The notes under the pieces are model-generated. The model was not told the DNA's origin. It saw only the letters and a list, made by a program, of their open reading frames with translations, and ran no database searches. The translations under genes and the position numbers were made by a program. This document shows, in pieces, positions 23,189 to 33,328 of a DNA stretch of 63,371 nt (positions are counted from its first letter, which is position 1; each line of letters opens with the position of its first letter). The stretch spans positions 1 through 63,371 of the forward strand of contig DATGJX010000159.1 in NCBI GenBank assembly GCA_035294905.1, in the 5' to 3' direction. This DNA is from Vulcanimicrobiaceae bacterium (GTDB lineage Bacteria; Vulcanimicrobiota; Vulcanimicrobiia; Vulcanimicrobiales; Vulcanimicrobiaceae).

Positions 23189-24589
23189 GTGGCGAGCATT
23201 TACATCGAAACGTTCGGTTGCCAGATGAACGAGGCGGATTCGCAGTACATCGCGGACCGAGCCTCGTCGGCCGGCTATGCGGTCGCCGAGCGCCCCGAAG
23301 ACGCGAACATCGTCGTGCTCAACACGTGCACCGTACGCGACAACGCGGAGCGCCGCGCGTACGGGCGCATGAACCATTTCAAGGTGCTCAAGCAAGCCGA
23401 CCCCGCGGTGAAGCTCGTCGTGATGGGCTGCCTCGCGGAGCAGGATCGCGATCGCATGCAATCGATCGTGCCGCACGTCGATGCCGTGTTCGGTACGTCG
23501 GAACTGGTACAGATGGGCGATGCGCTTGCGCAATGGCGCCCACAATTCGAAGACACGGAGTTCAGCGAAGAACGCGCGCTGCTCATGCCGTTCGGTGGAG
23601 CAGCGGATTGCATTACAGACGCGTTTTCGCATTTGCGCGGTTTCGTTACGGTACAGCGCGGCTGTTCGTACTATTGCACGTTCTGCATCGTGCCGCATGT
23701 GCGCGGCCGTTTCGATCACCGTCCCGCGAACGATATTCTCGACGAGGTGCGCGAGCGCGTCGCAGCGGGTGCGCGCGAAGTGATGCTCGTCGGGCAAACG
23801 GTAAACGCGTACAAGGATCCGGCCGACGGGACCGATTTCGGCGATCTGTGCAAGCGTGCGGCGCGGATTTCGGGCCTCGAACGGCTTACGTTCATTTCCC
23901 CGCATCCGAAGGACTTCACGGAGAAGATCATTCGCGATCTCTCGCAGGTGCCGCAGCTGAATCCGAGGGTGCACCTGCCGCTGCAGTCCGCGAGCGATCC
24001 GATTCTGCGACGCATGAACCGCAAATACACCGTGGACCAGTTCCGCGAAAAAGTCGCGCTGATTCACCGGTATTTGCCGAATTGGGCGATCACCACGGAC
24101 GTCATCGTCGGTTTCCCCGGCGAAACGGAAGAAGATTTTACGGCGACGCTCGACTACGTGAAGACCGGCGTGTTCGCGAATGCGTACATGTTCATCTATT
24201 CGAAACGCCGCGGCACACCCGCCGCTCGCTGGGAGCAAGTCGATCCGGCGGTTGCGAGCGAACGGTTCAAGCGGCTTGCCGATGCTCAAAATGTTGCCTC
24301 CCGCACTTACCACGAGCGTAAGATTGGCACGACCGTGCGCGCGCTGATTCAGGGACCATCGAAAAAAGACGCCGGAAAACTTGCCGCCAAGACCACGGAC
24401 AACGCCACGGTTATTGCGCCGATGCCGCCGGATTTCGATGAAGCACTTTATGCGCGCGAGCCGTGGATCGACGTTGAAGTTCACGAAGCTTTCATCTGGG
24501 GTTGCACCGGCACGATCGCCGGGCGTGCGGAACGCTTCGACGGCACGAGCGCCCCAGTAGAGCGACCCGTCATCGACCTGCTATACTAG
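23189..24589 (+). CDS. miaB: tRNA-i6A37 methylthiotransferase MiaB
   Basis: IETFGCQMNEADS UPF0004 domain, radical SAM CSYYCTFCIVP, TRAM C-terminus. Confidence 0.9.
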   Translation: MASIYIETFGCQMNEADSQYIADRASSAGYAVAERPEDANIVVLNTCTVRDNAERRAYGRMNHFKVLKQADPAVKLVVMGCLAEQDRDRMQSIVPHVDAVFGTSELVQMGDALAQWRPQFEDTEFSEERALLMPFGGAADCITDAFSHLRGFVTVQRGCSYYCTFCIVPHVRGRFDHRPANDILDEVRERVAAGAREVMLVGQTVNAYKDPADGTDFGDLCKRAARISGLERLTFISPHPKDFTEKIIRDLSQVPQLNPRVHLPLQSASDPILRRMNRKYTVDQFREKVALIHRYLPNWAITTDVIVGFPGETEEDFTATLDYVKTGVFANAYMFIYSKRRGTPAARWEQVDPAVASERFKRLADAQNVASRTYHERKIGTTVRALIQGPSKKDAGKLAAKTTDNATVIAPMPPDFDEALYAREPWIDVEVHEAFIWGCTGTIAGRAERFDGTSAPVERPVIDLLY

Positions 24590-24594
24590 GTGGT

Positions 24595-25515
24595 ATGCTG
24601 GTCCTTGCTCCGGTTGCAGCCGCGATGACGGACCCGTACGCGATTTTCGCCGCGGCGCAGCGTCATTGGCAATCCGCCGTCTACCCGCAAAAAGTCGCTT
24701 TCGGAGTCACCGTGACGGTATCGCGCGATGCCGTGACGTCACAAGCGCACTATCACGCTTGGTATGACGCCGAACAAAATCGCGTGCGCGTGGTCGGCGT
24801 GAGCGACGAGGAACTTGCGCATCCGTATACGCCGCACGGCATTAATTTCAATCTGAGCCTGTTCGGCGGAAGTCTTCCGCTCAGCGCGCCGCAGCGAACG
24901 TTCGACTATCTCGGCGTGCCCGTCCTCGCTCCGAATTACTCGTTCGGTATCATTCCGAACGCCGCGCCGAATACGACACAGAGCGGCATGGACTTGGTGC
25001 GTGAGATTCGCAAGGAATTCCACGATCCGCTTCCGCCGCGCCGCGAACAGTCGAATCCGCAAGACTTAAAGACCATTGCGTTGGTCGTGGTGGCGCATCG
25101 TCAGTACATCATCACGCTCGACGGATTGCAGTCGTTGAAGGGGCATCCGGATTATCACCTGCTGCTGCGGCCCGTAACGGATCCGGGCGTGTATCGCCTG
25201 CGCGAGATGTGGGTCGAAACGACGACGTACGCCGTGGATCGCCTCATAACCGACGGAAACTTTACGTCGGACGGCATGGGCGGTGTACGCTGGCAAATCG
25301 ACTACGATCAGATCGGGAACGCGCCGTTCATTTCTTCGGAAACGTCCTTCGCAGGATTCAGTACGGATCGCCGGCACTACGATACGGCAACCGTTGCGTT
25401 TACCACGATCGCTCCGGTTTCGTCCATTCCATTCGAAACGTTCTCGCAGCAGTTCGTGACAAATTCCGAAACGGCGCCGGAAGTTCTGAGCGAACCCGAC
25501 AAACCTCGCCGGTAG
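24595..25515 (+). CDS. secreted hypothetical protein, possibly LolA-like fold
   Basis: Start MLVLAPVAAAM. No catalytic motif. The LolA-like assignment is a guess from sequence character only. Confidence 0.5.
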   Translation: MLVLAPVAAAMTDPYAIFAAAQRHWQSAVYPQKVAFGVTVTVSRDAVTSQAHYHAWYDAEQNRVRVVGVSDEELAHPYTPHGINFNLSLFGGSLPLSAPQRTFDYLGVPVLAPNYSFGIIPNAAPNTTQSGMDLVREIRKEFHDPLPPRREQSNPQDLKTIALVVVAHRQYIITLDGLQSLKGHPDYHLLLRPVTDPGVYRLREMWVETTTYAVDRLITDGNFTSDGMGGVRWQIDYDQIGNAPFISSETSFAGFSTDRRHYDTATVAFTTIAPVSSIPFETFSQQFVTNSETAPEVLSEPDKPRR

Positions 25516-25817: not shown

Positions 25818-26030
25818 CTAGGCAACGTCTACCGTTTCGGCGATCGTGCTCGGCGGCGGCACCGGATGTCCTTGCTCGCGAGCCACCTCAACCCAAAGTG
25901 ATATAGCCTCTTTTACGTTTTCTCGCACGTCGTCGAGCGTGTTTCCGGCAGAAGAGCGGCCCGGCAGATCGGGTACCACCGCGCCCCAAGTACCGTCCGT
26001 TGCTTGGTCGTACAGGACTGCGTATTTCAT
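25818..26030 (-). CDS. hicB: HicB-family antitoxin
   Basis: MKYAVLYDQATDGTWGAVVPDLPG..GNTLDDVRENVKEAISLW matches the HicB/UPF0150 pattern. Confidence 0.8.
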   Translation of the reverse strand: MKYAVLYDQATDGTWGAVVPDLPGRSSAGNTLDDVRENVKEAISLWVEVAREQGHPVPPPSTIAETVDVA

Positions 26031-26267: not shown

Positions 26268-28766
26268 GTGACGAATTGTCGAGGCGTGAGCGCCGGCTAC
26301 TCACCAATGCTCGAGCAATACTTTGGGATGAAAGCGCGTCACCCCGAAGCGGTTTTGCTCTCACGCGTCGGGGATTTCTACGAAGCCTACGGTGAAGACG
26401 CCGAAACGATCGCGCGCGCGCTTTCGATTGCGCTGACGTCCAAAGAAGCAGGCGGTGGTAAACGCGTTGCGATGGCCGGCGTGCCGCATCACGCGCTCGC
26501 ACAATATTTGGCACGTCTCGTGCAGCAGCGCTTCATCGTCGCACTTGCGGAGCAGCTGGAACTTCCACAGCCGAATAAGCTCGTGCGCCGGGACGTCGTG
26601 CGTATCGTCACGCCCGGTACGCTCATCGAAGATCAACTGCTCGACGGGAAACAGAACAACTATCTCGCTGCGCTTACGGTAGTCGATGAAACCTTCGCGC
26701 TCGCGCATGCCGACGTCTCGACCGGCCTGTGTGCTGCTACCTCGATTACCGGCGACGGCGCATTCGACGAAGTGCTCGCGGAACTTGGGCGCATCGCTCC
26801 GGCGGAAGTCGTCGCCGACGTTCCCGCCGACGTGCGAGCGGCGCTGTCCGGCGCGCTCGAGAGCATCGGCGCACGCGTGACCGCGCCGGGATTGGCGGCG
26901 GTCGAGGGCCGCTCGCGCGGTCCCATCGGGGGATTCTCGCTCGATGAATCGCTCGCAATGCACCGCGCGCTCGACGCGCTCGTTGGTTTCGTCCGTCGCG
27001 TCGGCGTCGCAGCGCAAGAGCGAGCACCACTTTCCGCGCCCCAGTTTTACCGGCATCAAACGTTTCTTGCGCTCGATCCCAGCACGCGCGAGAACCTCGA
27101 ACTCACCAAGGCACTGGGCGCGAATTCTAAGGCGACGATGCTGGCGACGCTCGACAAGTGCGCCACCTCGATGGGTTCGCGCATGCTCGCGCGCTGGATT
27201 CTCGCGCCGCTCGTCGATCGCGCCGCGATCACGCAGCGCGCCGATGCCGTTGCGGCACTGATCGGCGAGCACGTGCGCCGCGAGTCGATGCAGGAGCTGC
27301 TGCGCGGGTGTTTCGACCTCGAACGCATCACGCAGAAGGTGCGCTTCAAACGCGCGTTTCCGCGCGATCTCGCTTCGCTGCGCCGCACGCTGGAGATACT
27401 GCGCCCGCTGTGCCAGGTGGCACCGAAGGCGTTGAGCGCGCATATCGCGCGCGTGGTGGACTTCGAGGATATGCTCGTCGATTTGCAGCGCACGCTGGTC
27501 GACGAGCCGCCCGCGCAGATTGCCGACGGCGGCGTAATTCGACCCGAAGCGAGTACGGAACTTGCGGAATGCGTCGCGTTGCGAACGGACGCGCGCGGCA
27601 AACTGTCGGAACTCGAGGGGCGCGAACGCGAGCGCACGGGCATCAAATCGCTGAAGATCAAGTATGCGAGTGCCTTCGGCTACGCAATCGAAGTGAGCAA
27701 GGGTTTCGTTTCACAAGTGCCGCCCGACTACGTGCGAAAGCAGACGCTGACGACCGGCGAGCGGTTTATTACACCGGAGTTGAAGGAACTCGAGATCGCG
27801 ATTTCCAGCGCGCAGTCCCGGCAACAGCGCCTGGAAGAGCAGCTCTTCGGCGAGCTGGTCGATCGCGTCGCGCTTCGCACCGACGATTTGCTTGCCACCG
27901 CACACGTACTCGCGGAGCTGGACGTGCTGTGTTCGCTCGCGCAATGCGCGGCGGAACGGGGATACGTCCGTCCGGAGTTCATCGACGAGAGCGAAGTCGA
28001 CGTCGTAGACGGCCGGCATCCCGTGATGGAAGCGATTCTGCGCACCCATTTCGTCCCGAACGATCTGCATTTGCGCACGCCGGACCATCGATTCATCTTA
28101 CTGACCGGGCCGAACATGGGCGGCAAGTCCACGTATTTGCGTCAAGCGGCGCTCTTGACGATCATGGCTCAAATCGGTTCGTTCGTTCCGGCGAAATCGG
28201 CGCGCCTGGGCATCGTCGATCGCATCTTCACGCGCATCGGCGCGGGCGACGATCTCGCTTCGGGGCAATCCACGTTTTATTTGGAAATGGCCGAAGCCGC
28301 CAACATTCTAAGGCGCTGCACGCGGCGAAGCTTATTACTCATCGACGAAGTCGGCCGCGGTACCGGAACCATCGACGGACTGGCGATCGCGCAGGCGATT
28401 TGCGAGTTTCTGCTCGGACTCGAAGAGCACGCGCCGATGGTGCTCTTTGCGACGCATTTTCACGAGCTGGTTTCGTTGGCCGAGCATTGGAAACTCGTGG
28501 CGAACTATCACATCACCGCCGTCGAAAACACCACGCGCGACGGCGCGCCGGTTTTTTCGCATCGCGTGCTTCCCGGAAGCTCGTCGCGTTCGTTCGGCAT
28601 CGAAGTTGCGCGCATGGCCGGACTTCCCGACACTGTTATAGAGCGCGCGCAAGAAATCGCCGACGCGCTTTCGGGCCATGCCGACGTCGAGGTGCAGGTC
28701 CCGCTCAAGCGGAAACTGCCTCGCGTCGGGGCGGCAGCGCAGCTCTCGTTTTTGCAGGCGGAATGA
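26268..28766 (+). CDS. mutS: DNA mismatch repair protein MutS
   Basis: SPMLEQYFGMKARHPEAVLLSRVGDFYE, Walker A GPNMGGKST, STFYLEM, DEVGRGT. Confidence 0.92.
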   Translation: MTNCRGVSAGYSPMLEQYFGMKARHPEAVLLSRVGDFYEAYGEDAETIARALSIALTSKEAGGGKRVAMAGVPHHALAQYLARLVQQRFIVALAEQLELPQPNKLVRRDVVRIVTPGTLIEDQLLDGKQNNYLAALTVVDETFALAHADVSTGLCAATSITGDGAFDEVLAELGRIAPAEVVADVPADVRAALSGALESIGARVTAPGLAAVEGRSRGPIGGFSLDESLAMHRALDALVGFVRRVGVAAQERAPLSAPQFYRHQTFLALDPSTRENLELTKALGANSKATMLATLDKCATSMGSRMLARWILAPLVDRAAITQRADAVAALIGEHVRRESMQELLRGCFDLERITQKVRFKRAFPRDLASLRRTLEILRPLCQVAPKALSAHIARVVDFEDMLVDLQRTLVDEPPAQIADGGVIRPEASTELAECVALRTDARGKLSELEGRERERTGIKSLKIKYASAFGYAIEVSKGFVSQVPPDYVRKQTLTTGERFITPELKELEIAISSAQSRQQRLEEQLFGELVDRVALRTDDLLATAHVLAELDVLCSLAQCAAERGYVRPEFIDESEVDVVDGRHPVMEAILRTHFVPNDLHLRTPDHRFILLTGPNMGGKSTYLRQAALLTIMAQIGSFVPAKSARLGIVDRIFTRIGAGDDLASGQSTFYLEMAEAANILRRCTRRSLLLIDEVGRGTGTIDGLAIAQAICEFLLGLEEHAPMVLFATHFHELVSLAEHWKLVANYHITAVENTTRDGAPVFSHRVLPGSSSRSFGIEVARMAGLPDTVIERAQEIADALSGHADVEVQVPLKRKLPRVGAAAQLSFLQAE

Positions 28767-29263
28767 TCTTTCGTCACGTCGGCAGTGCGTACGGGCGTGA
28801 GATTTTCGTGAATGCCGAGCCCGAAACGGCAGAACGCGCATCGCCGCAGGGCTATTCCATTGCAGCCGTGGTGCTGAACGACGGCTGGAAGAGCGGCGAC
28901 ATCGGGTCGCTGCTCAATCAGCTGTATGGCGCGCTCGACGACTGGACGGAGTTCAATTCCGATGCGGGTGCACGCTCGTTCGTGTTCTACGGCGAGCGTG
29001 CGGAAGAGGCGAGCGACCTCTGCGACGCGTTCGCGTACGCGTGGACCAAGGGCGCGGAATCCGAATACAACGACGTCATCGCCTCCTCTAACGATGCGCC
29101 GAATCTCGATGCATTCGTCGAAGGGATGATCTCCGGTGAAATCGCCGTCGGCGACGCGTACGCGGAAAAGATGCAAAACGTGCTCTTCGCGACGCAGGAC
29201 GAAGAGCCGGATAGACTCGCAGCAATCGTTACGGAAGCGGTGCAGCGCCATCACTTTGACTAG
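28763..29263 (+). CDS. uncharacterised acidic 166-aa protein between mutS and mutL
   Basis: Its ATG overlaps the mutS stop (ATGA) and its stop overlaps the mutL TTG start by 8 nt. Codon third positions are GC-rich like neighbouring genes. No recognisable motif. Confidence 0.6.
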   Translation: MIFRHVGSAYGREIFVNAEPETAERASPQGYSIAAVVLNDGWKSGDIGSLLNQLYGALDDWTEFNSDAGARSFVFYGERAEEASDLCDAFAYAWTKGAESEYNDVIASSNDAPNLDAFVEGMISGEIAVGDAYAEKMQNVLFATQDEEPDRLAAIVTEAVQRHHFD

Positions 29264-30944
29264 TACCATTCATCTGCTCGACCCGCAAACGATCGGACAG
29301 ATTGCCGCAGGCGAAGTCATCGAGCGGCCGCTCTCGGTGGTGAAAGAGCTGGTCGAAAATGCCGTCGATGCGGGTGCCACGCGCATTGCGGTTTCATTGC
29401 AAGACGGCGGCATCGCGCTCGTCGAGGTGGTCGATGACGGCATCGGCATAGAACCAGCCGATTTGCCGCTCGCGGTACGGCGCCACGCGACGAGCAAGCT
29501 CGCCGTCGCGACCGACTTGGAATCGATCGACTCGCTCGGCTTTCGCGGTGAGGGTCTGGCCAGTATCGCTGCGGTTGCGCAGTTGGAAATCCTCTCGCGT
29601 CAAGCCGATGCGCAGATCGGCTCGCGCATCGTTGCGCACGCGGAAGAAGCCGGCGAAGTGGAACCGGCTCCGTCGGCCATTGGAACGACGGTTCGCGCGC
29701 GCGATCTCTTTGCGAACGTACCGGTGCGGCGCGAATATTTGCGCTCGCCGAGTGCCGAGTTCAATCGCATTTCGGGATGGCTCTCGACGTTCGCGCTGGC
29801 GTATCCCGGAATCACGTTCTCGCTGCTTCATGACGGTAAAGACGTGTGGACGATGCCGGCGAGTTCGGACGAAACCGCGCGTTTGGCGACGGTGTTCGGC
29901 AAAACCGCCGCGGAAACGCTGATGCCGCTGAGTCCGGAAGCAGCGCGCGGTCTTCAAGGCTCGCTAAGCGGATTCATCAGCGCGCCCGGAAATGACCGCG
30001 CCGATCGGCGCATGCAGCTGCTCTTCGTGAATGGACGTCTACTGCGCAGCACGCTGCTGGCAGGTGCGTGGACTGCGGGGTATTCGACGTTTGCGATGAT
30101 CGGGCGTCAGCCGTACGGCGTGCTCTTTCTGACGCTGCCTCCCGAGCACGTCGACCCGAACGTTCATCCCACGAAAAGCGACGTGCGCTTGCGCTACGGT
30201 CACCAGGTCTTCGATGCGGTGAAACGCGCGATTGCAACTACGCTGCGCCATCACGCGACGGCCCGCTTTCGAGATGCCGTTACCGTTTCGCCCGCGCCGC
30301 AAGCAATGGATGCGGCGCTGCCACAGGTGCAATCGCTGTTTGCGCACTCCGCAACGGAAGAAGAAGCGTCGTCGAATGCAGCGCCCGGCGGTCTGCGCGT
30401 GCTGGCCCAGCTCGACAACACGTTCATTCTCGCAACCGATGGACGCGCGCTCGTGCTCGTCGATCAGCATGCCGCGCATGAGCGCATCGGGTACGAAAGA
30501 ATCGTCGCCGCTGCGCAGCAACGTGCACCCGGAGAGGCGCTGCTCGTGCCGCTGACGTTCGAGTTGGGTCCGTCGGAGAGTGCCGCACTCGATCGCATGT
30601 TGGAAATTTTGCGCGAAGGCGGCCTGGACGTCGAACCATTCGGCGAGCGGACGTATCGCATCGTTGCGACACCTGCAGGCTATCGTTCGCGGCCCTTCGA
30701 CGTCACCGGGTTTTTGGAGGATCTGACCGAAGAGCCCAAGCAGCGCGACGTGCGCGAGCGCGTCTGGGCATCGCTTGCATGCCATTCGGTCACCCGCGCG
30801 GGCGAGCGGCTCGACATGGCGGAGATGGCGACGCTCGTCGAACGCTTGCAGCGCTGCGAGAACCCCATGCATTGCCCGCACGGACGCCCGACCATCGTAC
30901 GCATGGACAGCGAAGCGATTCAGAAACTTTTCAAAAGGATATAG
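29256..30944 (+). CDS. mutL: DNA mismatch repair endonuclease MutL
   Basis: IHLLDPQTIGQIAAGEVIERP GHKL ATPase N-terminus. DQHAAHERIGYERI endonuclease motif. CPHGRP. Confidence 0.9.
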   Translation: MTSTIHLLDPQTIGQIAAGEVIERPLSVVKELVENAVDAGATRIAVSLQDGGIALVEVVDDGIGIEPADLPLAVRRHATSKLAVATDLESIDSLGFRGEGLASIAAVAQLEILSRQADAQIGSRIVAHAEEAGEVEPAPSAIGTTVRARDLFANVPVRREYLRSPSAEFNRISGWLSTFALAYPGITFSLLHDGKDVWTMPASSDETARLATVFGKTAAETLMPLSPEAARGLQGSLSGFISAPGNDRADRRMQLLFVNGRLLRSTLLAGAWTAGYSTFAMIGRQPYGVLFLTLPPEHVDPNVHPTKSDVRLRYGHQVFDAVKRAIATTLRHHATARFRDAVTVSPAPQAMDAALPQVQSLFAHSATEEEASSNAAPGGLRVLAQLDNTFILATDGRALVLVDQHAAHERIGYERIVAAAQQRAPGEALLVPLTFELGPSESAALDRMLEILREGGLDVEPFGERTYRIVATPAGYRSRPFDVTGFLEDLTEEPKQRDVRERVWASLACHSVTRAGERLDMAEMATLVERLQRCENPMHCPHGRPTIVRMDSEAIQKLFKRI

Positions 30945-30946
30945 CC

Positions 30947-31414
30947 GTGCTTCACAACGAGCACCACTTCACGGTTTCGCTGACGTGGACCGGAAACCGC
31001 GGAAACGGCACCAGCGATTATCGTGCTTACGGACGCGATCACGAGATCTCGGCAAGCGGCAAGTCCGTCGCGATTCCGGCATCGTCGACGCCCGTCTTTC
31101 GTGGCGACAAGGACCGCTACAATCCGGAAGAATTGCTCATCGGTGCGCTTTCCGGGTGCCACATGCTCTGGTTCTTGCATCTGTGCGCCGAAGCCGGCAT
31201 CGTGGTGACGGCCTATAGGGATGAAGCGGATGGCACGATGCAGCTCAACCCCGACGGCTCCGGTAAGTTCACCGACGTCGTGCTGCGGCCGCACGTCGAA
31301 TATGCGGAAACGCCGCCGCGCGAGAAGACCGAAGCCCTGCATCACCGCGCGCACGACTTGTGCTTCATTGCGCGATCGGTGAACTTTCCGGTCCGGTGCG
31401 AACCGGCGTATTAG
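30947..31414 (+). CDS. OsmC/Ohr-family peroxiredoxin-like protein
   Basis: NPEELLIGALSGCHMLWF and HDLCFIARSV (the two conserved Cys regions). GTG start 3 nt after the mutL stop. Confidence 0.75.
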   Translation: MLHNEHHFTVSLTWTGNRGNGTSDYRAYGRDHEISASGKSVAIPASSTPVFRGDKDRYNPEELLIGALSGCHMLWFLHLCAEAGIVVTAYRDEADGTMQLNPDGSGKFTDVVLRPHVEYAETPPREKTEALHHRAHDLCFIARSVNFPVRCEPAY

Positions 31415-32292
31415 TTTTAGCGGGGCCGACGGGCTCGGGTAAGACCGATCTGGCGATTTCGCTCGCAAAACGTTTCGATGCGGAGATCGTCGGTGCGGAT
31501 TCTCGGCAAATCTATCGCGGCATGCCGATTGGCACGGCGGCGCCGACGCCCGAACAGATGGCGGCGGTTCCGCATCACCTCATTGGCTTTCTGGATCCGC
31601 ACGAGCGGTACTCGGCTGCACGTTTTTCCACCGATGCGATACGCGCGATCGAAGAAATTCACGCGCGCGGAAAGCGCGCTATCGTTGCCGGCGGGACCGG
31701 GTTCTACGTTCGGGCACTGACCGGCGCCGTAGAACTCGCGCCGCAATACGATGAAAGCCTTCGCGAGCGCCTCGCGCATGAAGCGAAGCTTCACGACCCG
31801 CAGTTTCTGTACGACTGGCTGACGGTGCGCGATCCGAAGCGCGCGGCGATGCTGCACGCCGGGGATGCGTACCGCGTGCTGCGCGCCCTCGAAGTGGCGC
31901 TTGCACCTCCGCAATCGACGTTGCGCGCGGAACCGCTGCGCTCGCTCGCGAGCAGCGGCATACCGTTTCTAAAAGTATTTCTGGAGGTCGATCTCGCCGA
32001 GTTGGATCGGCGCATCGAAGCGCGCACCGACGCGATGCTTCAGAGCGGCTTGCTCGATGAAGCGGAACGCGTCGGCGGCGATGCGGTCGCGGCGAGCGCC
32101 GTCGGATATCCGCAAGCATTGGCGTATGTACGCGGCTGGTGTACCTACGACGAACTTCGCATGCTGTTGGTTCGTGCAACCCGCCGCTATGCCAGGCGGC
32201 AGGCCACGTGGTTTCGTTCGGAGCCGCAGACGCAGAGCGCGCACGCCGATGAGCTTGAGCGTTTGGCAAGGGAAAAGCTCGGGTGGGTTTGA
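31396..32292 (+). CDS. miaA: tRNA dimethylallyltransferase MiaA
   Basis: LAGPTGSGKTDLAISLAKRFDAEIVGADSRQIYRGMPIGTAAPT. The ORF is open from 31360. Confidence 0.9.
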   Translation: MRTGVLVLAGPTGSGKTDLAISLAKRFDAEIVGADSRQIYRGMPIGTAAPTPEQMAAVPHHLIGFLDPHERYSAARFSTDAIRAIEEIHARGKRAIVAGGTGFYVRALTGAVELAPQYDESLRERLAHEAKLHDPQFLYDWLTVRDPKRAAMLHAGDAYRVLRALEVALAPPQSTLRAEPLRSLASSGIPFLKVFLEVDLAELDRRIEARTDAMLQSGLLDEAERVGGDAVAASAVGYPQALAYVRGWCTYDELRMLLVRATRRYARRQATWFRSEPQTQSAHADELERLAREKLGWV

Positions 32293-32564
32293 AGCCCGCA
32301 TTCATGCCGGGCAGCCTGCAAGATACATACTTGGCCGAAATCAAGCGGCAGGGCGTTCCCGTGACCGTCTACTTGGTCAACGGTTTTCAATTGCGCGGCA
32401 TCGTCAAAGGGTTCGATCCGTTCACGATTCTGATCGAATACGAGCGTAAGACGCACCTCATCTACAAACACGCCGTCTCGACGATCTCGCCGCAGGGCCC
32501 GTTCGCGAATCCCGAACCTGCGCCCGCGCCAGCGAACGAGCGCGCCGAGGTCACCTCAGGCTAA
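32283..32564 (+). CDS. hfq: RNA chaperone Hfq
   Basis: LQDTYLAEIKRQGVPVTVYLVNGFQLRGIVKGFDPFTILI..HLIYKHAVSTI Sm1/Sm2 motifs. Alternative start at 32304. Confidence 0.9.
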   Translation: MGLKPAFMPGSLQDTYLAEIKRQGVPVTVYLVNGFQLRGIVKGFDPFTILIEYERKTHLIYKHAVSTISPQGPFANPEPAPAPANERAEVTSG

Positions 32565-33328
32565 TGTCCGCCGTCGCCGTGACGAAGATGCACGGCACGT
32601 TCAACGATTTCATCATCCTCGACCAGCGCCCGCCGTCCGTCGCGAATATTTTTGCGTTTGCGAAAGGCGCATGCGACCGCCGGGGCGGTATCGGCGCGGA
32701 CGGCCTCATCGTTCTGCTCGAGTCCGATCGCGCCGACGTGCGTATGCGCATCATCAATGCGGACGGCAGCGAAGCGGAGATGTGCGGCAACGGCGCGAGA
32801 TGTGCCGCGCGATTCCTGGCCGATCGCGGCGAAGGCAGGCGCGTCCGGTTCGAAACGCTCGCCGGCATTATCGCCGCGGACGTTTTCGATGACGGCAGCG
32901 TGCGCTTGACCATGGGCGTTCCACGCTTCGAGAACCAACCGCTTCCGTTCGCGGATGCCTCGTTCGTATCGATGGGAAATCCGCACGTCGTCATCTTCGC
33001 GGGCTCGCTGGACGACGTTGACATCGAGGCGCTCGGCATCGCGAATCCCGACGTCAACGTGCACGTCGCGGTTGTAATCGATCGCTCGCACATGCGCGTT
33101 CGGCACTTCGAACGCGGCGTCGGCATTACGTATTCCTGCGGCACCGGAGCTGTTGCAAGCGCAGCGGCCGCGATGAAGCGCGGTCTGGTGGACTCGCATG
33201 TCGATGTGAACGTTCCCGGCGGTCACGTGATTGTGGAATGGGACGGCGAGCATGAGGCATTCCTTACTGGGCCGACCGCTCGCGTCTTCGATGCGACGTT
33301 CGAGGAAGTGCATGCAGTCGCCGTCTAG
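32564..33328 (+). CDS. dapF: diaminopimelate epimerase
   Basis: MHGTFNDFIILD and the two catalytic Cys regions MCGNGARCAARF and YSCGTGAVASA. Its ATG overlaps the hfq TAA (TAATG). Confidence 0.9.
   Translation: MSAVAVTKMHGTFNDFIILDQRPPSVANIFAFAKGACDRRGGIGADGLIVLLESDRADVRMRIINADGSEAEMCGNGARCAARFLADRGEGRRVRFETLAGIIAADVFDDGSVRLTMGVPRFENQPLPFADASFVSMGNPHVVIFAGSLDDVDIEALGIANPDVNVHVAVVIDRSHMRVRHFERGVGITYSCGTGAVASAAAAMKRGLVDSHVDVNVPGGHVIVEWDGEHEAFLTGPTARVFDATFEEVHAVAV

What the first reader, a model, noticed from the sequence alone, without database searches (positions are those of the whole stretch)
28763..29263. Uncharacterised acidic 166-aa ORF translationally coupled between mutS and mutL
The 489-nt interval between mutS and mutL is not a spacer. 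An ORF starts at an ATG overlapping the mutS stop (gaATGAtc) and ends 8 nt inside mutL (TTG at 29256). Its sequence begins MIFRHVGSAYGREIFVNAEPETAERASPQGYSIAAVVLNDGWKSGDIGSLLNQLYGALDDWTEFNSDAGARSFVFYGERAEEASDLCDAF and ends AIVTEAVQRHHFD. It is strongly acidic, has gene-like GC3, and has no motif I recognise. The MutL here carries the DQHAxxExxxxE endonuclease motif, so this is a MutH-independent system, where strand discrimination and nuclease licensing are the least understood steps. An obligatorily co-translated third protein inside mutS-mutL is a candidate mismatch repair accessory or regulator. It could also be an unrelated passenger, for example an immunity-like or SUKH-like protein.
Basis: partly seen in the sequence, partly recalled or inferred. 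Interest (0 to 1): 0.66.

Follow-up and report, generated by a model that had tools for sequence, protein, structure and literature searches.

The report
Orphan gene wedged between mutS and mutL
A real, well-folded protein of unknown family is encoded between the DNA mismatch repair genes mutS and mutL in one branch of the uncultured phylum Eremiobacterota; close relatives lack it, so it is an optional add-on, and nothing yet shows it takes part in repair.

Summary
ORF 28763..29263 (+) encodes 166 aa. Its ATG overlaps the mutS stop (ATGA) and its last 8 nt overlap the mutL TTG start. It is a real gene: GC by codon position matches its neighbours, dN/dS is 0.14-0.21, and about 60 homologues were found. 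AlphaFold2 gives pLDDT 85 and pTM 0.84.

It has no Pfam, NCBIfam, PADLOC or PHROG match and no significant PDB or BFVD neighbour. A profile search of 1.84 billion representative proteins found the family only in Eremiobacterota (Baltobacteraceae and relatives). There are two subtypes, A and B, 25-35% identical to each other.

In all 16 distinct loci with enough flank, the gene lies directly after mutS, and directly before mutL wherever the contig extends that far. It changes about 3-4 times faster than MutS. Five related lineages with equally similar MutS lack it. In three of them mutS and mutL overlap or abut. Two ORF-less lineages are sisters of ORF-bearing ones, so the gene has been lost repeatedly and is dispensable.

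The same operon carries unrelated genes (osmC, miaA, hfq, dapF). My best guess, at 0.4, is an acidic, non-enzymatic modulator of MutS or MutL. An unrelated passenger gene is almost as likely, at 0.35. Moderate interest.

The parts
28763..29263 (+). ORF166. A 166-aa acidic protein (pI 4.18) of a previously undescribed family, subtype A. Predicted alpha/beta sandwich with element order b1-b2-b3-a1-b4-a2-b5-a3-b6-a4.
   Evidence: sequence and composition. (56 homologues; invariant G11 R12 W42 N52 G56 W61 F64 G69 R71 S72 F73 F75 G77 R79 D88 W94 and others). (AlphaFold2 pLDDT 84.9, pTM 0.84). (dN/dS 0.14-0.21).
28763..28766 (+). ATGA junction. The ORF166 start codon overlaps the mutS stop codon, a signature of translational coupling.
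   Evidence: of the 11 subtype-A loci (window included), 9 have this [A/G]TGA overlap, L012 directly abuts, and in L005 the mutS frame runs about 35 nt further.
29256..29263 (+). 8-nt overlap of the ORF166 3' end (TAG 29261-29263) with the mutL TTG start at 29256.
   Evidence: In subtype-B loci the ORF stop overlaps the mutL ATG as ATGA.
26268..28766 (+). mutS. The true start is probably the Met at codon 14, about 26307, giving 819 aa as in homologues. All five MutS domains are present. The C-terminus ends in QLSFLQAE, which resembles a beta-clamp-binding motif, with no further C-terminal domain.
   Evidence: Pfam MutS_I-V. (homologues of 819 aa). (the tail is the same in lineages with and without ORF166).
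29256..30944 (+). mutL, endonuclease type. It has the DQHAAHERIGYE motif, a MutL_C domain and a CPHGRP motif.
   Evidence: HATPase_c_3, DNA_mis_repair, MutL_C. Translation.
30779..31414 (+). OsmC-like gene packed between mutL and miaA. The real start is probably just after the mutL stop at 30944. This is a second lineage-specific insertion in the same operon.
   Evidence: Pfam OsmC, 1e-16. (present in most subtype-A loci with flank and in L025; absent in L018, L020, L021 and L026).
31360..33328 (+). miaA, hfq and dapF. These are downstream cistrons of the same tightly packed gene string and are functionally unrelated to mismatch repair.
   Evidence: The same order is seen in all related loci.

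Best explanation
ORF166 is a genuine protein-coding cistron restricted to one lineage and inherited vertically. It sits inside the mutS-mutL transcription unit of a subclade of Eremiobacterota.

Shown:
- Its start overlaps the mutS stop and its stop overlaps the mutL start.
- No promoter-like or terminator-like site lies inside it.

Inferred from this: ribosomes finishing mutS most likely re-initiate on ORF166, and ribosomes finishing ORF166 re-initiate on mutL. This would fix production at a set ratio to the two repair proteins.

Also inferred, not shown:
- The protein is a small, strongly acidic, Rossmann-like alpha/beta domain.
- Its family-wide invariant residues look structural rather than catalytic. 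They include the R71/F73/F75 face of strand b4, C87-D88 on helix a2, and G69, G77 and W94.
- It therefore most likely acts by binding rather than by catalysis, as an optional modulator of MutS and/or MutL. One possibility is that it occupies a positively charged DNA-binding surface, or tunes MutL loading or nicking. The most conserved segment, LNxLYG-loop-F-loop-GAR (a1 to b4), is the candidate interaction site.
- It is an accessory, not a core component, because sister lineages run mutS-mutL without it.
For: - Real gene under purifying selection.
- Confident fold for both subtypes.
- Exclusive linkage. The window plus 15 other distinct loci were examined: subtype A in L001-L003, L005-L008 and L010-L012, subtype B in L013, L014, L015, L020 and L023. 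In all of them the gene lies immediately downstream of mutS, and upstream of mutL wherever the contig extends.
- An exhaustive profile search of 1.84 billion representative proteins found no family member in any other architecture or as a fusion. A second profile search gave 62 proteins, all short stand-alone 'hypothetical' proteins.
- The position and the overlapping junctions persisted while the protein diverged to 25-35% identity.
- No promoter-like or terminator-like site lies inside the ORF.
- Acidity is conserved across the family. Subtype A has pI 4.05-4.4, and the seven subtype-B database proteins 4.46-4.65; the L020 subtype-B copy is 4.86. MutS and MutL have pI 5.7-6.0.
Against: - Five related lineages (MutS 76-82% identical) lack the gene. 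In L021 and L025 mutS and mutL overlap by 4 nt, in L026 there is a 1-nt gap, in L018 a 111-nt spacer, and in L022 mutS is not next to mutL.
- L026 (without) is sister to L020 at 100% bootstrap. L021 (without) is sister to L023 at 86%. The gene has therefore been lost repeatedly without visible change to MutS or MutL.
- The MutS tail architecture is the same with and without the gene.
- No MutS or MutL residues co-vary with presence beyond label-swap controls: 6 positions against 2-4.
- Only core residues are shared between subtypes A and B, although MutS and MutL are 70-89% conserved. That is unexpected for a fixed interface.
- The operon carries unrelated genes, including another lineage-specific insertion, osmC.
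- There are no interaction data of any kind.
Confidence: 0.4

Rival explanations
1. Passenger gene. ORF166 has a cellular role unrelated to mismatch repair. It uses the constitutively expressed miaB-mutS-mutL-miaA-hfq gene string for expression. Its fixed position reflects inertia: moving it would break mutS-mutL coupling, so only a clean deletion is tolerated.
For: - The same operon holds unrelated genes (miaA, hfq, dapF) and a second lineage-specific insertion, osmC, between mutL and miaA.
- L010 has a further insertion of about 310 nt at the ORF-mutL junction.
- The gene was lost repeatedly and cleanly in sister lineages.
- MutS and MutL show no co-variation with its presence.
- It evolves fast: dN is about 3-4 times that of MutS.
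- All carriers belong to one phylum-level lineage, so the shared gene order could be by descent alone.
Against: - The family is found nowhere else and in no other context among 1.84 billion representatives. A generally useful protein might be expected to spread or to have paralogues.
- Coupling is kept at both junctions across deep divergence.
Confidence: 0.35
2. Translational relay. What is selected is mainly the act of translating a cistron between mutS and mutL, which sets the MutL:MutS ratio through two successive re-initiation events. The protein product is secondary.
For: - Overlapping stop and start codons at both ends.
- Lineages without the ORF couple mutS directly to mutL by ATGA.
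Against: - dN/dS of 0.14-0.21, invariant core residues and a confident compact fold in both subtypes show selection on the protein itself.
- A pure relay would not need 166 conserved codons.
Confidence: 0.1
3. Selfish or conflict-related gene, such as an immunity protein, an antitoxin, a SUKH-like protein or a remnant of a mobile element inserted at the mutS-mutL junction. The model is the SpyCI islands of Streptococcus pyogenes.
For: - The mutS-mutL junction is a known integration target in S. pyogenes (PMC3430984, PMC4689407, found).
- Fast evolution and patchy distribution.
Against: - No PADLOC, PHROG or Pfam hit for either subtype.
- No integrase, repeats or partner toxin gene. The gene is flush with its neighbours.
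- GC and codon-position composition are native.
- The ORF identities to the window copy follow the main split of the MutS/MutL tree (L011 and L012 lowest, at 46-49%). The A-B divergence fits vertical descent at a constant relative rate.
Confidence: 0.05
4. Not a gene: a chance open frame in GC-rich spacer DNA.
For: Long spurious ORFs are common here. The same frame is open for 701 codons, and a 253-codon minus-strand ORF overlaps.
Against: - Conserved protein, with synonymous changes far more frequent than non-synonymous ones.
- About 60 homologues.
- High-confidence structure predictions.
Confidence: 0.01

Closest known systems
Bicistronic mutS-mutL operon of MutH-less bacteria (for example Bacillus subtilis), within the conserved miaB...mutS-mutL-miaA-hfq gene order
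   Same: - MutS has all five domains and a C-terminal QLSFL motif resembling the beta-clamp-binding QLSFF of B. subtilis MutS (motif comparison from my own knowledge).
- MutL has the DQHAxxExxxxE endonuclease motif.
- The flanking genes are the same.
- Related Eremiobacterota have exactly this two-gene arrangement, with mutS and mutL overlapping.
   Different: Here a third, 166-codon cistron of an unknown family is inserted between the two genes and coupled to both. No such component is described in the papers found.
SpyCIM1 and related SpyCI chromosomal islands of Streptococcus pyogenes (PMC3430984, PMC4689407)
   Same: An extra genetic element sits between mutS and mutL, and so could change mutL expression.
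   Different: SpyCI is a phage-like island. [quoted passage not shown] ORF166 is a single native-composition gene. It has no mobility genes, is inherited vertically, and is arranged to pass translation on to mutL rather than block it.
The mutL-miaA-hfq string as a set of functionally unrelated genes packed together
   Same: In this window mutL, osmC, miaA, hfq and dapF are tightly packed although their functions are unrelated. This is the model for the passenger reading.
   Different: ORF166 lies between the two repair genes themselves. Unlike miaA and hfq, it belongs to a family found only at this position.
Mur-ligase domain (MurT of the GatD/MurT complex, PDB 6h5e) and Rossmann-like alpha/beta/alpha sandwiches in general
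   Same: The best structural neighbour of the subtype-B model is 6h5e_D (E 2.9e-3, TM 0.49). A MurC chain appears low in the subtype-A list (TM about 0.36). The alternation of strands and helices is of the Rossmann-like kind.
   Different: - The match is below the usual significance and TM thresholds.
- No Pfam Mur_ligase hit.
- No nucleotide-binding or ligase motifs.
- The subtype-A model has no PDB or BFVD neighbour with E below 0.01.

Membership tests
MutH / PD-(D/E)XK strand-discrimination nuclease | Sequence match to the MutH family or a restriction-endonuclease-like fold. | tested here: not met
   No Pfam or NCBIfam hit at E up to 10 for any of 57 members. No nuclease among the listed Foldseek PDB or BFVD neighbours except a CARF ring nuclease at TM 0.35, which is not significant.
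   No Pfam match. The neighbours are always mutS and mutL, never toxin genes.
Anti-phage defence or phage-derived proteins | Match to a PADLOC or PHROG profile. | tested here: not met
   No match for the window copy (subtype A) or for four subtype-B proteins.
Duplicated domain of MutS or MutL | Profile-profile similarity to any region of the neighbouring MutS or MutL. | tested here: not met
   hhalign of the family profile against MutS and MutL alignments gave probability 0.1% and E 0.4-0.6.
Mur ligase domain | Significant structural superposition (TM above 0.5, E below 1e-3) together with Mur_ligase sequence motifs. | tested here: inconclusive
   Subtype-B model against 6h5e_D: E 2.9e-3, TM 0.49. 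Subtype-A model: only TM 0.36 to MurC. No Pfam Mur_ligase hit.
Beta-clamp-binding proteins (QL[SD]LF-type motif) | An exposed, conserved clamp-binding pentapeptide. | tested here: not met
   The only look-alike is Q138-N-V-L-F142. It lies in predicted strand b6 (E137-144), and the Q is not conserved.
Class I aminoacyl-tRNA synthetase (TrpRS) fragment | Significant sequence or fold similarity, and HIGH/KMSKS motifs. | tested here: not met
   Only a 29-residue local match (LNxLYG...F...GAR) at E 0.085. There are no HIGH or KMSKS motifs, and no aaRS among the listed Foldseek hits.
Mismatch repair accessory subunit (functional class, not a sequence family) | Physical interaction with MutS, MutL or the beta-clamp, or an effect on mutation rate. 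| not testable with these tools
   Only indirect evidence is available: strict gene linkage set against repeated loss.
DNA-mimic proteins | A surface array of acidic residues that mimics the DNA backbone, and binding to a DNA-binding protein. | not testable with these tools
   Acidity is conserved across the family, with pI 4.05-4.86. Surface charge geometry and binding could not be examined.

The most novel reading that the evidence does not exclude
ORF166 is a previously unknown third component of a MutH-independent mismatch repair system. In this reading it is an acidic adaptor made in fixed proportion to MutS and MutL. It binds one of them, for example the positively charged DNA cleft of the MutL N-terminal domain, or the MutS tail near the clamp motif. 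By doing so it gates MutL loading or endonuclease licensing. Lineages that keep it would have a different repair set-point, or different control of the mutation rate, from sister lineages that lost it.
Probability: 0.3. Interest if true: 0.75.

Novelty: new variant of a known kind. Interest (0 to 1): 0.42.

Why it matters
How MutS activates the MutL endonuclease, and how the nascent strand is chosen, is still unsettled for bacteria without MutH. No dedicated accessory protein encoded inside a mutS-mutL operon turned up in the literature searched.

If ORF166 binds MutS or MutL, it would be a new handle on that step. It comes with a natural experiment, because sister lineages with and without it could be compared for mutation spectra.

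If it is only a passenger, it still defines a new, confidently folded protein family with no detectable relatives. It would also show that the junctions of this conserved operon accept inserted genes, and lose them again cleanly.

Tried and rejected
- **Profile libraries.** Pfam, NCBIfam, PADLOC and PHROG scans of the window protein, of all 57 subtype-A members (Pfam) and of subtype-B members gave nothing consistent.
- **PDB sequence profiles.** Searches with three family profiles gave only sub-threshold local matches: AddA at E 0.095 and TrpRS at E 0.085. I treat both as chance.
- **Foldseek.** The subtype-A model had no hit with E below 0.01 or TM above 0.42 in PDB or BFVD. The subtype-B model's best hit was MurT, E 2.9e-3 and TM 0.49. 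That is a lead, not a classification.
- **Origin by duplication of a MutS or MutL domain.** Rejected by hhalign.
- **ORF166 replacing a missing MutS C-terminal domain.** Rejected. The MutS tails are the same in lineages with and without the ORF.
- **Residues in MutS or MutL that track ORF presence.** Six positions against 2-4 in label-swap controls, so no signal.
- **MutS-ORF166 fusion by frameshift or readthrough.** Rejected. The frame relation and spacing between the mutS stop and the ORF start differ among loci.
- **Clamp-binding motif in ORF166.** The look-alike QNVLF is in a predicted buried strand.
- **Metagenome scans.** The scan with the mixed A+B alignment failed for lack of a conserved stretch. 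The scan with the subtype-B alignment returned only two loci.
- **Complex prediction.** I did not attempt a fused-chain prediction. The structure tool reports no inter-chain confidence, so the result could not have been judged.
Full report
**1. The observation**

The sequence is as described.
- mutS ends with TGA at 28764-28766. The ATG at 28763-28765 opens a 166-codon frame that ends with TAG at 29261-29263.
- mutL can only start at TTG 29256, 8 nt before that stop. The same TTG aligns with residue 1 of MutL in several relatives.
- The protein is acidic: pI 4.18, 30 D/E against 10 K/R.
- GC at codon positions 1/2/3 is 0.635/0.419/0.749, the pattern of the neighbouring genes.
- MutL has DQHAAHERIGYE and the MutL_C domain. 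MutS has all five MutS domains.

Openness of the frame is not evidence in this DNA. The same frame runs open for 701 codons back through mutS, and a 253-codon ORF overlaps on the other strand.

**2. Is it a gene?**

Yes.
- A search of 5.8 billion proteins found 56 homologues of 158-178 aa at 49-96% identity. All were unnamed or 'hypothetical'. One comes from Candidatus Baltobacteraceae.
- The alignment has 25 invariant and 33 nearly invariant columns.
- Pairwise dN/dS is 0.14-0.21 for all but the most divergent pair tested, against 0.04-0.08 for mutS and 0.08-0.13 for mutL over the same genome pairs. For the least saturated pair (L006/L007, dS 0.28) the values are 0.14, 0.04 and 0.10.
- AlphaFold2 with the family alignment gives mean pLDDT 84.9 and pTM 0.84. 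The model is a compact alpha/beta domain with element order b1-b2-b3-a1-b4-a2-b5-a3-b6-a4.

**3. What family?**

None known.
- Pfam, NCBIfam, PADLOC and PHROGs give nothing for the window copy. Pfam scans of all 57 subtype-A members, and PADLOC and PHROG scans of subtype-B proteins, add nothing consistent.
- Profile searches of PDB sequences give only sub-threshold local matches.
- Foldseek of the model finds no PDB or BFVD neighbour with E below 0.01. TM-scores are 0.42 or lower. The weak hits are assorted Rossmann-like sandwiches.
- hhalign against MutS and MutL rules out a duplicated neighbour domain.

An exhaustive HMM search of 1.84 billion representative proteins found only 13 hits:
- the subtype-A cluster and its fragments;
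- five divergent short proteins (P0057, P0059, P0060, P0062, P0065);
- four long proteins that match only in several short stretches. P0064, the one inspected, is a tandem-repeat protein, and I take these as spurious.

The divergent proteins form subtype B. They are 25-35% identical to the window copy. They share the invariant core G69, R71, F73, F75, G77, A83, C87, D88 and W94, and the nearly invariant L51, N52, L54, G56 and F64. A subtype-B model is equally confident (pLDDT 86.3, pTM 0.85) and has the same order of elements. Its best PDB neighbour is MurT (6h5e_D; E 2.9e-3, TM 0.49). That is a lead to a Mur-ligase-like Rossmann domain, not a classification.

**4. Genomic context**

They are.

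| Subtype | Loci | Position |
|---|---|---|
| A | window, L001-L003, L005-L008, L010-L012 | directly after mutS, before mutL |
| B | L013, L014, L015 (L016 and L017 are the same sequence), L020 (Ca. Rubrimentiphilum), L023 | directly after mutS; before mutL in every locus except L013, whose contig ends first |

- Of the 11 subtype-A loci (window included), 9 have an [A/G]TGA overlap with the mutS stop; L012 directly abuts, and in L005 the mutS frame runs about 35 nt further.
- In subtype B the stop overlaps the mutL ATG as ATGA.
- No promoter-like or terminator-like site lies inside the ORF.
- All named carriers are Eremiobacterota, also called Vulcanimicrobiota.

**5. Relatives without it**

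I looked up MutS proteins that are 76-82% identical to the window's, which is the range of the subtype-B carriers.

| Locus | Organism | mutS-mutL junction |
|---|---|---|
| L018/L019 | Vulcanimicrobiaceae | 111-nt spacer |
| L021 | Ca. Meridianibacter frigidus | 4-nt overlap |
| L025 | unnamed | 4-nt overlap |
| L026/L027 | unnamed | 1-nt gap |
| L022 | unnamed | mutS is followed by an unrelated hydrophobic ORF, and mutL is elsewhere |

A six-frame HMM search of L018-L022 found the family only in L020.

On a MutS+MutL neighbour-joining tree, L026 (without) is sister to L020 at 100% bootstrap. L021 (without) is sister to L023 at 86%.

Subtypes A and B are homologous and sit at the same site. 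Their divergence is about what a constant 3-4-fold higher non-synonymous rate than MutS predicts. The simplest history is therefore one ancient gain followed by at least three or four clean losses. The ATGA present at both junctions offers an obvious route to a precise deletion; this is my inference.

**6. Does anything tie it to repair beyond position?**

No.
- MutS C-terminal tails are the same with and without the ORF. All end at a QL[ST]FL-type motif resembling the clamp-binding motif, with no further domain.
- Positions in MutS or MutL whose residues separate carriers from non-carriers number 6, against 2-4 when labels are swapped within sister pairs.
- Only core residues are shared between subtypes A and B, although MutS and MutL are 70-89% identical across the same genomes.
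- The operon is not a pure repair unit. In this window it continues into osmC, miaA, hfq and dapF. osmC is itself a lineage-specific insertion, present in most subtype-A loci with flank and in L025, and absent in L018, L020, L021 and L026.
- L010 has a further insertion of about 310 nt between the ORF and mutL.

**7. Mechanism**

Shown:
- a protein-coding cistron under purifying selection;
- start and stop codons that overlap both neighbours;
- conserved acidity across the family, with pI 4.05-4.86;
- a confident Rossmann-like fold;
- dispensability in sister lineages.

Inferred:
- Translation is relayed from mutS to ORF166 to mutL, which would fix the stoichiometry.
- The invariant residues look structural. 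R71, F73 and F75 lie on one face of b4, and C87-D88 lie on the helix predicted to pack against it. This suggests a binding protein rather than an enzyme.
- The best-conserved exposed segment is the a1-loop-b4 stretch LNxLYG...F...GAR.

I commit to an optional, non-catalytic modulator of MutS and/or MutL, with confidence 0.4. The passenger reading follows closely at 0.35. Lesser rivals are a pure translational relay (0.1), a conflict or mobile gene (0.05) and a non-gene (0.01).

**8. Comparison with what is known**

- The frame is the standard MutH-less mutS-mutL operon. The difference is the third cistron.
- The only described 'thing between mutS and mutL' in the papers searched is the SpyCI phage-like island of S. 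pyogenes, which interrupts mutL expression (PMC3430984, PMC4689407). That is a different kind of element.
- The only paper in the library that mentions both Eremiobacterota and mismatch repair is about Chloroflexota lineages and names the phylum only in passing.

**9. Verdict**

This is a new protein family in a new variant of a known operon. It is confined to an uncultured lineage, its function is unproven and it is clearly dispensable. Interest is moderate, at 0.42. The most novel reading still open, a true third mismatch repair component, has a probability of about 0.3.

Noticed in passing
window 25818..26030 (-): A 70-aa HicB-like antitoxin gene (Pfam HicB_lk_antitox, 9e-15) lies just upstream of mutS on the opposite strand. 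I did not look for a HicA partner.
   Followed up: partly
window 30779..31414 (+); also L001, L002, L005-L007, L010, L011 and L025: An OsmC-like gene is wedged between mutL and miaA. It is present in most subtype-A loci with flank and in L025, and absent in L018, L020, L021 and L026. It is a second lineage-specific insertion in the same operon. Its distribution is independent of ORF166: L025 has osmC but no ORF166.
   Followed up: partly
L010:5531-5838: One relative has about 310 extra nucleotides between the stop of the ORF166 homologue and the mutL start. They contain a minus-strand ORF of about 65 codons with no match in the other loci or the window.
   Followed up: partly
L001/L004 (CAWHMK010000001.1), mutS and mutL: Both mutS and mutL are split into two called genes by frameshifts in this 2.8-Mb contig. 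These are probably assembly indels rather than pseudogenes. The ORF166 homologue between them is intact.
   Followed up: no
window 28763..29263, family positions 44-72: The most conserved segment of the family (LNxLYG...F...GAR) resembles the helix-loop-strand [22 protein letters not shown] of bacterial TrpRS (PDB 8i1w; E 0.085). The match is not significant, and Foldseek does not support it.
   Followed up: partly
window 24502..25515 (+): A 337-aa ORF between the miaB-like gene and mutS has no Pfam match. In relatives this position holds other genes or none: an unannotated 298-aa gene in L002, a Glyco_hydro_18 gene in L022, and nothing in L018, L020, L021 or L026.
   Followed up: no
L022:6534-7169: In the one relative where mutS is not followed by mutL, the next gene is a 211-aa hydrophobic, alanine- and leucine-rich protein with no Pfam match. 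After it come Bestrophin-like and LytR_cpsA_psr genes. It is not related to ORF166.
   Followed up: partly
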